In this document: in pieces, positions 1,595 through 4,587 of the stretch
How the letters are laid out: each line of letters opens with the position of its first letter
Numbering within the stretch: the first letter of the stretch is position 1
DNA from: Candidatus Aenigmatarchaeota archaeon
Lineage (GTDB): Archaea; Aenigmatarchaeota; Aenigmatarchaeia; QMZP01; QMZT01
Reading direction: 5' to 3'
NCBI GenBank assembly: GCA_026397315.1
Contig: JAPLVC010000004.1
Span: forward strand, 32,001 to 96,000
DNA length: 64,000 bases
Translations under genes and position numbers: made by a program
The notes under the pieces: model-generated
The model's input: only the letters and a program-made list of their open reading frames with translations
Told to the model about the DNA's origin: nothing
Database searches by the model: none

Positions 1595-1862
1595 CGCCGG
1601 GAACAGGATTCGAACCTGTGTGGGCCTGCGAGCGAAAGACGCGCTTTCCGCGTCGTTTACTTTTCGCCCACCGGATCTCCTGAAAGGATTACTGGGGTTG
1701 CTCCTCATATTCCGCCGATCAGAGTCAAGCCATGAAGTCATCGCAAGCGAATGGCATGCTCACGCATGCCGACTGCCCGCTCTTAAGATCCAGTTTTCAA
1801 GTCCGGCGCGTGCGTAGGCCAGCAAAGTTTCCTTTACCGGTTTACCACTCCGCCATCCCGGC
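1595..1862 (-). tRNA. tRNA-Ser(UGA) precursor with three introns (1812-1842, 1677-1795, 1628-1663); mature 82 nt, CCA not encoded
   Basis: Acceptor GCCGGGA/TCCCGGC with G73; anticodon stem CCGGA/TCCGG with CT-TGA-A; T arm ACAGG-TTCGAAT-CCTGT; long variable arm GGGC/GCCC; each insertion is bounded by a BHB-like 4-bp helix plus 3-nt bulges. Confidence 0.92.
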
Positions 1863-2887: not shown

Positions 2888-3178
2888 TTAAACATCCAAA
2901 CCGGAGCTTTTTTCGAGCTCTTTCTTCGCCTGCTTCTTTTCCTTCTTTATTTCTTCCTTGAGCTTGGGTAGCTTCATCAGGAAACCGCACTTCGGGCATG
3001 TGAAAGAGAACGGTCTTATCCAAGGCGTTTCCTCGTGCTTCGCCAGGCCGCACTCCGGACAGACGTAATCCATGTGCGCGGTTTCAGTCCCGCTGGGCAC
3101 CATCACGCGCATCTTGCCCTTTTCCTCGCCTTTCGAGTTCTTCATTACCCTGTTGCTGACGAACTTGTATTTGTTCAT
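2888..3178 (-). CDS. Zinc-ribbon hypothetical protein
   Basis: YVCPECG and FTCPKCG pairs, Lys-rich tail. Confidence 0.7.
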   Translation of the reverse strand: MNKYKFVSNRVMKNSKGEEKGKMRVMVPSGTETAHMDYVCPECGLAKHEETPWIRPFSFTCPKCGFLMKLPKLKEEIKKEKKQAKKELEKSSGLDV

Positions 3179-3210: not shown

Positions 3211-4587
3211 TCATGCGGTTTCCTGGGGCACGAAACTGTGCAGCTTTCTCCTGTGCCTCAGCCAGTATCCTGACTTGAACAGCACGTATGCCAGCAGGAA
3301 ACCAGCGAAGTTTCCTATCGGGAAGCCGAGCCACACGCCGTCGAGCCCCATAAACGAGGCGAAAAAATACGACATGGATATGACGACAATCCACCGCGTT
3401 ATGTTTATCACCAGCTGGAGGTCTGTCCTCCCTGCCGCCTGCAGCGCGCCGCCGAGGACGAAATTGAGACCCATGAAAACGTAGCCGAGAGCTATTATCC
3501 TGAAATACATCGCGCCCGTAGCAAGGATTGCCGGGTCGTTCGTGAACGGGGCGAAAAGCATTTCCGGCGAAAAAAACCATATCGCCGAGAAGAAAAGCAT
3601 GAAGAGTATCGTGGCGTAAGAAGCCTTCTTCACTCCCTCGTGCGCCCTGTCCGGCTTCTCCGCGCCGAGGTTCTGGCCGACGAACGGAATGAGTGCTATC
3701 ATGAGGCCTATCGAAGGAAGGATGGCTATAGATTCCAGGCGTATGCCCACGCCGAAAGCCGCTATCGCAGACATCCCGAACGTGCCGACGAGCCCCATCA
3801 GGAGGAACATGCCTATGCTGTTGAACGACTGGCTTATCGACGAGGGAAGGCCTATGGAGAATATTTTTTTCACCAGCTTCGAGTCGAATTTGAAGCACTC
3901 CATCTTTATGCACAGCGACGTCTTGCCTGAGAATATGTGGTAAAAATTCAGCACAGCGACTATCGCTATCGTCGCAACCGTCGCTATCGCAGCGCCTGCG
4001 ACGCCCATGGCGGGGACCGGCCCGAAGCCGAATATCAGGAGCGGGTCGAGTATCACGTTCGCTACGACGCCGGCAACGAGGTTCTTCGTCGGCGTGATCG
4101 TGTTGCCGTCCGCCTGTATTATGCCCTGCGATATCATGCCCAGGAACTGCAGGATGAAGCCGAAGAATATGATGTTCATGTACTGCAGCGTCATCTCGAG
4201 CGTGGAACCGCTTATGCCCATCAGGCCGAATATCTGCCTCGAGAACAATAGTCCCACGGCCGCCACGGCCGCGCCTGAAGCGAGAGCCATCACTATCGCG
4301 TGCATCGATATGTTGGCCGCATCTTTATTCCTGCCCGCGCCTATGGAATGGGAGATAAGCGCCGTCGAGCCGATGTTAAGCCCGGACGCTATGGCTATCG
4401 AGATGAAGAATACCGGGAACGTGACGCTTATCGCAGCGAGCGCGTCGGAGCCCATCATGCTCACGAAGAACGTGTCCGTGAGATTGAAGGCTATCTGCAG
4501 CGAAGTGCCTATTATCACGGGAAGGGCGAGCATGAAAAGCGTTCTTGTCGTGTCGCCTTTAGTCAGATCCCTTTCGCCTCTTTTCAT
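3211..4587 (-). CDS. MATE-family efflux transporter
   Basis: DLTKG..LALP, DTFFVS..ALAA, NVILDPLLIFG..MGVAGAAIAT; about 12 TM (upstream TTG start at 4620 possible). Confidence 0.95.
   Translation of the reverse strand: MKRGERDLTKGDTTRTLFMLALPVIIGTSLQIAFNLTDTFFVSMMGSDALAAISVTFPVFFISIAIASGLNIGSTALISHSIGAGRNKDAANISMHAIVMALASGAAVAAVGLLFSRQIFGLMGISGSTLEMTLQYMNIIFFGFILQFLGMISQGIIQADGNTITPTKNLVAGVVANVILDPLLIFGFGPVPAMGVAGAAIATVATIAIVAVLNFYHIFSGKTSLCIKMECFKFDSKLVKKIFSIGLPSSISQSFNSIGMFLLMGLVGTFGMSAIAAFGVGIRLESIAILPSIGLMIALIPFVGQNLGAEKPDRAHEGVKKASYATILFMLFFSAIWFFSPEMLFAPFTNDPAILATGAMYFRIIALGYVFMGLNFVLGGALQAAGRTDLQLVINITRWIVVISMSYFFASFMGLDGVWLGFPIGNFAGFLLAYVLFKSGYWLRHRRKLHSFVPQETA

What the first reader, a model, noticed from the sequence alone, without database searches (positions are those of the whole stretch)
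1677..1795. Anticodon intron of tRNA-Ser may encode a C/D-like guide or chaperone RNA antisense to the 16S rRNA 5' end
Seen: the 119-nt intron reads, on the minus strand, GCGATGA (C-like, 1744-1738) - CTTCATGGCTTGACT - CTGA (D', 1722-1719) - TCGGCGGAAT - ATGAGGA (C'-like, 1708-1702) - GCAACCCCAGTAAT. It also has a perfect GGCATGC-GTGA-GCATGCC hairpin. On the plus strand, three segments resemble the conserved archaeal 16S 5' region as I recall it (AUUCCGGUUGAUCC...GCUAUYGGRGU...AAGCCAUGCRAGUC): ATTCCGCCGATC (1709-1720), TACTGGGGTT (1690-1699) and AAGCCATGAAGTC (1727-1739). Known: the intron-encoded box C/D RNA precedent is euryarchaeal pre-tRNA-Trp, which guides methylation of tRNA itself. Eukaryotic U3 is a C/D RNA that pairs with the SSU rRNA 5' end. 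Inference: the excised intron may act in trans on pre-16S rRNA, as a dual methylation guide or a U3-like folding chaperone, coupling tRNA splicing to ribosome biogenesis. Caveats: there is no canonical CUGA D box after the second guide, the matches are short and use G-U pairs or bulges, and this organism's 16S is not in the window.
Basis: partly seen in the sequence, partly recalled or inferred. Interest (0 to 1): 0.88.

Follow-up and report, generated by a model that had tools for sequence, protein, structure and literature searches.

The report
Circular tRNA intron guiding decoding-site methylation
The intron cut out of this tiny archaeon's serine tRNA persists as a circular RNA that most likely guides methylation of the ribosome's decoding site (16S A1408) and of its own tRNA, making it an archaeal counterpart of the intron-borne snoRNAs of eukaryotes.

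Summary
The intron is real, and it is a box C/D guide RNA, but its target is not the 16S 5' end. The host is an Aenigmatarchaeota (DPANN) tRNA-Ser(UGA) gene. Three metatranscriptomes from three studies hold exactly this 119-nt intron as a circle. The boxes are in rotated order: the 'missing' D box sits at the intron's 5' end, and the true C box is 1741-1735. The 12-nt D' guide makes 10 Watson-Crick pairs with native 16S helix 44, pointing at A1408 (E. coli numbering). It beats the 5'-end site in 15/15 genomes, and guide and 16S change together in one family. Guide plus box are identical over 14 nt to Nanoarchaeum equitans sR13, where Am1408 is proven. The second guide pairs across the intron/3'-exon junction and points at the tRNA's own U39 in 47/47 relatives. 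An invariant GGCGG loop probably adds yeast-type extra pairing at 16S 1399-1403 (unresolved). The same sR13 RNA sits in 16S introns in other lineages, one copy per genome. Methylation itself is not shown here.

The parts
1595..1862 (-). tRNA-Ser(UGA) gene, class II, interrupted three times (D-loop, 37/38, variable arm)
   Evidence: Sequence; relatives lacking the two smaller introns give the exon junctions; missed by ARAGORN and Rfam
1677..1795 (-). 119-nt anticodon-loop (37/38) intron; excised as a circular RNA
   Evidence: 149-nt (119+30) contigs with a back-joint 1794 to 1676/1677 and no exon cover in 3 RNA runs of 3 studies
1786..1794 (-). D guide, complementary to the last 2 intron bases plus tRNA 38-44; N+5 = U39
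   Evidence: 9 bp with one G-U here; N+5 pair A:U39 in 47/47; position -3 pairs with the last intron base in 46/47 (three Watson-Crick types); position -7 follows tRNA base 41
1781..1784 (-). Box D (AAGA, degenerate), at the intron's 5' end (rotated order)
   Evidence: GA at this fixed place in 47 of 64 introns; first base pairs with C-box position 6 in 43/47, with A-U, U-A and G-C types
1743..1780 (-).
   Evidence: Folds; a stem of variable sequence and length in 46 of 47 relatives
1735..1741 (-). Box C (AUGACUU; RUGA conserved, last three bases variable)
   Evidence: RUGA 12 nt upstream of D' in all 64 (part of the search pattern); canonical AUGAUGA or AUGAGGA in some relatives
1723..1734 (-). 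D' guide, complementary to 16S 1405-1414 (G000 C7:77611-77620); N+5 = A1408
   Evidence: 10 Watson-Crick pairs, best rRNA site; 25 of 27 genomes with both sequences pair fully; 14 nt of guide plus box identical to Neq sR13
1719..1722 (-). Box D' (CUGA)
   Evidence: CUGA 42, CGGA 17, CCGA 5 of 64; C pairs with C' position 6 in 64/64
1712..1716 (-). Invariant GGCGG in the D'-C' loop; probable extra pairing with 16S 1399-1403
   Evidence: Present in all introns found by the BLAST search that did not require it; cofold gives guide duplex plus 5 bp, -21.6 kcal/mol; target not proven
1702..1708 (-). Box C' (AUGAGGA)
   Evidence: RUGANGA-type in all 64
1691..1695 (-). CCAGU, can mask the U39 guide inside the intron or circle
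   Evidence: Paired with the intron's 5' end in the circular fold; partly conserved in the family
1670..1678 (-). Self-target across the 3' splice site; U39 = 1675
1812..1842 (-). D-loop intron, about 31 nt (ends inferred, plus or minus 1)
   Evidence: Absent in G001, G002, G004
1626..1661 (-). Variable-arm intron, about 36 nt (ends inferred, plus or minus 2)
   Evidence: Absent in G012, G021, G022

Best explanation
The intron is a box C/D guide RNA of the Nanoarchaeum sR13 family, stored in rotated order inside pre-tRNA-Ser(UGA). Step 1 (inferred): L7Ae, Nop5 and fibrillarin load on two local kink-turns, D-stem-C and D'-loop-C'. [quoted passage not shown] Step 3 (shown in close relatives): splicing releases the 119-nt intron as a stable circle. 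Step 4 (inferred, strongly): the D' guide pairs with 16S 1405-1414 and directs 2'-O-methylation of A1408 at the decoding site, perhaps also 1409 as in N. equitans. Step 5 (inferred, weaker): GGCGG in the D'-C' loop pairs with 1399-1403 just upstream and helps the guide invade helix 44. My odds: A1408 guide 0.85, U39 guide 0.7, extra pairing at 1399-1403 0.5.
For: Circular intron in 3 RNA runs of 3 studies, depth 185 in one, no exon cover. Core in 57/371 genomes, 0 reversed controls, always in the tRNA-Ser(UGA) 37/38 intron. Helix 44 is the best rRNA site; 34 of 2000 shuffled guides reach 10 pairs anywhere in 16S+23S. It beats the 5' site in 15/15 genomes; guide -11 and 16S 1414 are A:U in 19 and U:A in 8 genomes. 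Am1408 was measured in N. equitans and assigned to sR13 pairing with 1405-1415 (PMC5389701); the guide and box are identical over 14 nt (PMC3491384). The complete sR13 form, with its anti-Shine-Dalgarno guide, sits in the same tRNA intron at 13 other loci. In G062 a second guide containing GGCGG pairs with its own 16S at 1399-1408, N+5 = C1402. U39 and kink-turn covariation. Fibrillarin, Nop5, L7Ae and the splicing endonuclease are in the genome. Extra pairing between D' and C' is known in yeast (PMC3116282).
Against: No methylation, protein binding or target pairing was measured here. The C and D boxes are degenerate and the 3n-3b kink-turn pair is mostly not U-U. G012 and G021 have guides with 3 and 2 mismatches to their own 16S. 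The 1414 covariation is one event in one family, not eight. The C'-D spacer across the circle junction is 36 nt, not 12. The circular contigs are from close relatives (95-99+% alike), are contigs, and show no strand. GGCGG fits several rRNA sites equally well.
Confidence: 0.8

Rival explanations
1. Single-guide RNA: only the A1408 guide works. The match of the intron's 5' end to the 3' exon is a splicing-related fold or a duplication relic, not a U39 guide.
For: Degenerate D box; the segment also pairs inside the intron with CCAGU; an intron start resembling the anticodon stem would be complementary to the 3' exon automatically.
Against: A GA-ending box lies exactly five bases past the base that pairs with U39 in 47/47; its first base covaries with the C box; position -3 tracks the last intron base rather than base 37 (46/47 versus 19/47). 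The tRNA-Trp intron guides Um39 in the same way.
Confidence: 0.2
2. Binder or checkpoint rather than methylase: the circle clamps 16S 1399-1414 on both sides of C1404 and holds helix 44 open, or exposes a base for another enzyme, with methylation secondary or absent.
For: Bipartite pairing leaves C1404 single-stranded; 1404 is modified in Haloferax (PMC2584109); a folding-delay role was proposed for sR13.
Against: The N+5 pair is Watson-Crick in every genome tested, D'/C' are near consensus, and the same guide methylates A1408 in N. equitans. An RsmA/Dim1 homologue is present, so the RNA is not needed to replace that checkpoint.
Confidence: 0.1
3. One reading: a dual guide or U3-like chaperone for the 16S 5' end.
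For: 9 bp to the native 5'-region site and 12 bp with a bulge to nt 1-13. The base before GGCGG is a pyrimidine in 61/64, which fits 16S nt 14-19 or 3-10 better than 1399-1404. In some relatives the second guide covers the central-pseudoknot strand near U912.
Against: Weaker than helix 44 in 15/15 genomes; the invariant guide positions -2 and -3 mispair there; in family f5 the guide change breaks a pair there but keeps it in helix 44. The nt 1-13 duplex needs the D' box melted. Segment 3 does not match and is not conserved.
Confidence: 0.07
4. Chance matches in a functionless intron.
For: Matches are short; two relatives have decayed guides.
Against: Conservation across at least 13 families with freely varying stems, identity to sR13, one copy per genome, stable circle.
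Confidence: 0.02

Closest known systems
Nanoarchaeum equitans box C/D sRNA sR13 (PMC3491384, PMC4644070, PMC5389701)
   Same: D' guide plus D' box identical over 14 nt; same target 16S 1405-1414, N+5 = A1408; 12-nt C-D' spacer; DPANN host.
   Different: sR13 is a free-standing 54-nt gene in normal order whose second guide targets A1534. Here it lies in a tRNA intron, in rotated order, with the second guide aimed at tRNA U39, a 10-nt loop carrying GGCGG, and degenerate C and D boxes.
Box C/D RNA in the euryarchaeal pre-tRNA-Trp intron (Haloferax volcanii; Pyrococcus sR50; PMC2584109 suppl. 4, PMC7994747)
   Same: 37/38 intron, circular after splicing, one guide pairs across the intron/3'-exon junction and targets U39, followed by a D-type box, a hairpin and a C-type box.
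   Different: Both tRNA-Trp guides target the host tRNA (C34, U39) and the boxes are in normal order. Here the host is tRNA-Ser, the order is rotated, and the other guide targets rRNA. No sequence homology was shown.
N. equitans tRNA-Met intron RNA and permuted sRNA24 (PMC3491384)
   Same: Stable tRNA-intron RNA with a D-hairpin-C motif; a rotated C/D RNA that is circular in the cell.
   Different: No target was predicted for either; sRNA24 is not in a tRNA intron.
Yeast snoRNAs with extra base-pairing, such as snR70 (PMC3116282)
   Same: A short conserved element between D' and C' complementary to rRNA just upstream of the guide target.
   Different: Eukaryotic and tested; here only predicted, 5 bp, with rival sites.
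U3 snoRNA (own knowledge)
   Same: C/D-type RNA pairing with small-subunit rRNA.
   Different: U3 does not methylate, has a long 5' domain pairing with the 5' ETS and 18S 5' end, and is needed for cleavage. None of this is seen here.

Membership tests
Archaeal box C/D sRNA | Two C-type and two D-type boxes able to form kink-turns | tested here: met
   D'/C' near consensus with the C-G pair in 64/64; D/C degenerate but GA conserved, closing stem present, first stem-II pair Watson-Crick in 43/47
Archaeal box C/D sRNA | Guide of 9-12 bp upstream of a D-type box with a Watson-Crick pair at N+5 | tested here: met
   10 bp to 16S, N+5 = A1408; 9 bp to pre-tRNA, N+5 = U39
Archaeal box C/D sRNA | About 12-nt spacers between C and D', and C' and D | tested here: inconclusive
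   C-D' is 12 nt in all 64; C'-D is 36 nt across the circle junction here, 12-13 nt in several non-rotated relatives
Archaeal box C/D sRNA | Exists as a stable small RNA | tested here: met
   Circular 119-nt RNA in three metatranscriptomes of close relatives
Archaeal box C/D sRNA | L7Ae, Nop5 and fibrillarin encoded | tested here: met
Archaeal box C/D sRNA | Binds L7Ae and directs 2'-O-methylation | not testable with these tools
   Needs biochemistry or RiboMeth-seq
Neq sR13 family | D' guide to 16S A1408 | tested here: met
Neq sR13 family | D guide to the anti-Shine-Dalgarno end (A1534) | tested here: not met
   Absent here; present in 13 other tRNA-Ser intron copies (one of them, L290, divergent) and 28 16S-intron copies. 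This copy is a derived form.
tRNA-Trp intron guide (sR50 type) | Intronic guide for host U39 across the 3' splice site | tested here: met
tRNA-Trp intron guide (sR50 type) | Host is tRNA-Trp; second guide targets C34; normal box order | tested here: not met
   Host tRNA-Ser(UGA), second guide to 16S, rotated order
U3-like chaperone | Conserved complementarity to the small-subunit rRNA 5' end outside the boxes | tested here: not met
   Best site is helix 44 in 15/15; the 5'-end duplex needs the D' box; only GGCGG remains ambiguous
BHB-spliced 37/38 tRNA intron | Cut after base 37 and before base 38, 4-bp central helix, circular product | tested here: met
   Bases 32-35 pair with CAGG at the intron end; circle junction at the predicted place; endonuclease gene present

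The most novel reading that the evidence does not exclude
In Aenigmatarchaeota the decoding-site guide sR13 has no gene of its own. It rides in protein-spliced introns and has moved between tRNA-Ser and several 16S rRNA introns while swapping its second guide (A1534, U912, G902, C1402, tRNA U39). In this order it has become a rotated circle that first gates splicing of its own tRNA and then clamps helix 44 with eukaryote-type extra pairing, so that tRNA-Ser splicing is the only source of a small-subunit maturation factor.
Probability: 0.35. Interest if true: 0.85.

Novelty: new variant of a known kind. Interest (0 to 1): 0.68.

Why it matters
Known archaeal tRNA-intron guides modify only their own tRNA. 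In the papers I could search I found no tRNA intron that guides rRNA modification. This one aims at a decoding-site base whose methylation is proven in another DPANN archaeon, is seen as a circular RNA in nature, and appears once per genome. It gives a long tRNA intron a reason to be kept, offers an archaeal parallel to intron-hosted snoRNAs, and shows how guides are rotated, re-targeted and moved between host introns. Rotated order also explains why standard finders miss such RNAs. Each prediction is testable with a three-protein in vitro assay.

Tried and rejected
ARAGORN and Rfam found nothing at the locus; whole-segment folding was not better than shuffles (z -1.27). The first collection scan used too loose a pattern and returned mostly chance bacterial hits. 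A 16S 5'-end pattern and a 23S pattern were mis-specified and gave little; I replaced them with fetched loci. The D guide also matches 23S near native position 955 (11 bp), but that site is a variable hairpin that loses the match in G022; rejected. GGCGG against 23S 2500-2505 looked good here, but the site differs in G062, G278 and G279 while the loop does not, and flanking changes do not covary; not favoured. Reading the AUGA of C' as a D box for GGCGG gives no fixed N+5 (spacing 2 or 3 nt); rejected. A target at tRNA base 34 was considered; no tRNA gene matched the D' guide. A genome scan for other C-12nt-D halves with 10 or more rRNA pairs found only this one with a second C box behind it; the scan was narrow and shows no absence. 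Run X5 gave no cover, which proves nothing. PMC92551 was not held.

Full report
Observation. On the minus strand, 1862-1595 is a class II tRNA-Ser(UGA) gene with three insertions; neither ARAGORN nor Rfam finds it. The anticodon stem is 1806-1802 with 1675-1671, base 37 is 1796 and base 38 is 1676, so the intron is 1795-1677 (119 nt). Bases 32-35 pair with CAGG near the intron's end, as in a bulge-helix-bulge site. The genome is 1.05 Mb; named records that carry the element are almost all Aenigmatarchaeota or unnamed archaea, including its closest relative G003.

The intron is a real circular RNA. Three metatranscriptomes from three studies (marine sediment, aquatic, groundwater) each hold a 149-nt contig, 119 plus 30, that covers only the intron and joins 1794 back to 1676/1677; neither exon is covered, and depth is 185 in the groundwater run. 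In two runs the junction carries one extra base, which equals the first intron base of several relatives, placing the circle at 1677-1795. These are contigs of close relatives and show no strand, but the joined form is not in the genome.

Anatomy from 64 orthologues. A BLAST search of 60 relatives and a pattern search of 371 genomes of the phylum recovered the element in 57 genomes by the strict pattern, with no hit for the reversed control, and always in the 37/38 intron of tRNA-Ser(UGA). Stems vary freely; four boxes and three short elements do not. A 10-nt loop with invariant GGCGG leads to C' (AUGAGGA, 1708-1702). In 47 introns the D box lies at the 5' end (AAGA, 1784-1781), joined to C by a stem and a 3-nt bulge. 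Its first base pairs with C-box position 6 in 43 of 47, in three pair types; for D'/C' the pair is C-G in 64 of 64. The order is therefore rotated: D guide, D, stem, C, D' guide, D', loop, C'. Both kink-turns are local, so they can form in the precursor as well as in the circle (inference). Kin are not independent, so these counts overstate the number of events.

Target of the D' guide. The native 16S lies on contig C7. Of 2000 shuffled guides, 34 reach 10 pairs anywhere in the two rRNAs. Among 27 genomes with both sequences, 25 pair fully; helix 44 beats the 5' site in 15 of 15; family f5 has U1414A in 16S and the matching A-to-U change in the guide (8 genomes, one event). G012 and G021 carry decayed guides. 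Am1408 and Am1409 were measured in Nanoarchaeum equitans and assigned to sR13, which pairs with 1405-1415 (PMC5389701). The published sR13 sequence shares 14 identical bases of guide and D' box with this intron (PMC3491384).

Target of the D guide. Bases 1794-1786 pair with the last two intron bases and tRNA 38-44; the fifth base before the D box pairs with U39 in 47 of 47. Position -3 pairs with the last intron base in 46 of 47 (C-G, A-U, U-A) but with base 37 in only 19, so the target is the unspliced precursor; position -7 follows base 41. The tRNA-Trp intron guides Um39 across the same junction (PMC2584109), and in vitro work favours action in trans (PMC7994747). Because this duplex uses the 3' strand of the anticodon stem, methylation should precede splicing (inference).

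The GGCGG loop. With the boxes held unpaired, the intron cofolds with 16S 1392-1419 as the guide duplex plus five pairs at 1399-1403, leaving C1404 free (-21.6 kcal/mol). G at the fourth place suits both U1400, found in this order, and C1400, found in G278 and G279. Yeast snoRNAs use conserved elements between D' and C' in this way (PMC3116282). In G062 a GGCGG-containing guide with a D box pairs with its own 1399-1408 and points at C1402, and both guide and loop have an A opposite that genome's C1404U change. Rivals remain: helix 18 (522-527, six Watson-Crick pairs), 16S nt 14-19 or 3-10, and 23S 2500-2505. I could not separate them by covariation.

Origin. Seventeen introns lack the U39 guide. 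Several have a D box near the 3' end with a second 16S guide: U912 in f7 and f11 (tested on this genome's 16S), G902 in f3, C1402 in G062; G025 keeps both a U912 guide and the U39 guide. A scan for short-loop forms found 41 archaeal loci in sR13 form, with the anti-Shine-Dalgarno guide (divergent in L290): 13 in the same tRNA-Ser(UGA) intron and 28 in introns near the 16S 3' end. Each of 37 genomes tested, this one included, has one copy of the guide; the genomes are incomplete. So this intron is a derived sR13, and the RNA has changed host intron at least once; the direction was not tested. Fibrillarin, Nop5, L7Ae, the splicing endonuclease and an RsmA/Dim1 homologue are encoded.

Mechanism and status. 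Shown: sequence, conservation, pairing, covariation, circular RNA in close relatives, protein genes. Inferred: RNP assembly, Um39 before splicing, Am1408 in trans, extra pairing. The U3-like reading fails its main test and survives only as one possible partner for GGCGG.

Novelty. Intron-borne guides for the host tRNA, rotated circular sRNAs and Am1408 guides are each known. A tRNA intron that guides rRNA methylation, and an sR13 that lives in tRNA and rRNA introns, I did not find in the held papers; most subscription papers are not held. I class it as a new variant of a known kind. I reached this reading before consulting earlier notes. Later look-ups showed that this scan had described the same element in other genomes, and the 16S-intron form; those notes are not independent support. 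Interest 0.68.

Noticed in passing
L032 about 4190-4230 (G000 C7:81267-81298), 23S peptidyl transferase centre: Positions 2497-2504 read U C U C C G C C instead of the usual A C C U C G A U, in nearly all genomes of the order that matched; class-level relatives differ again. The opposite strand near 2448-2453 also looks changed, by eye. One paper search found nothing.
   Followed up: partly
G000 C5:47352-47485 (tRNA-Glu UUC): The intron holds a D-stem-C kink-turn with the same AAGA and AUGACUU boxes and a 9-bp guide whose N+5 is the tRNA's own U34.
   Followed up: partly
G000 C6:6262-6417 and C7:84511-84603: Two more anticodon introns (ARAGORN's tRNA-Tyr, possibly Thr UGU; and tRNA-Lys CUU) show, by eye, a U39 guide, a D box, a hairpin and a C box. 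Self-guides may be common in this lineage's tRNA introns.
   Followed up: partly
L185, L020, L027, L031 (G009, G013, G024, G051): Large inserts (D' to GGCGG distance 29-89 nt instead of 2-5) sit between the D' box and GGCGG; they may be nested introns that must be removed before the guide works.
   Followed up: no
L016, L023 (G021, G012): The A1408 guide has 2 and 3 mismatches to the genome's own 16S while all boxes and GGCGG are kept: decay or re-targeting.
   Followed up: partly
L001 about 2910-3050 (G000 16S, next to A1492/A1493): A 141-nt insert interrupts the 16S at the decoding site; it does not carry the sR13 guide in this genome.
   Followed up: partly
G000 C2:82939-83068: A tRNA gene whose anticodon reads UAU by eye (Ile), unusual for archaea.
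   Followed up: no
L237, L248, L323: Contigs labelled bacterium, Rikenella and Hadarchaeum carry the Aenigmatarchaeota-type element; probably mis-binned.
   Followed up: no
L346 (G000 C1:34871-35107): The splicing endonuclease lies in a 398-aa frame, a size like the broad-specificity three-unit enzymes of DPANN (own knowledge); type not tested.
   Followed up: no
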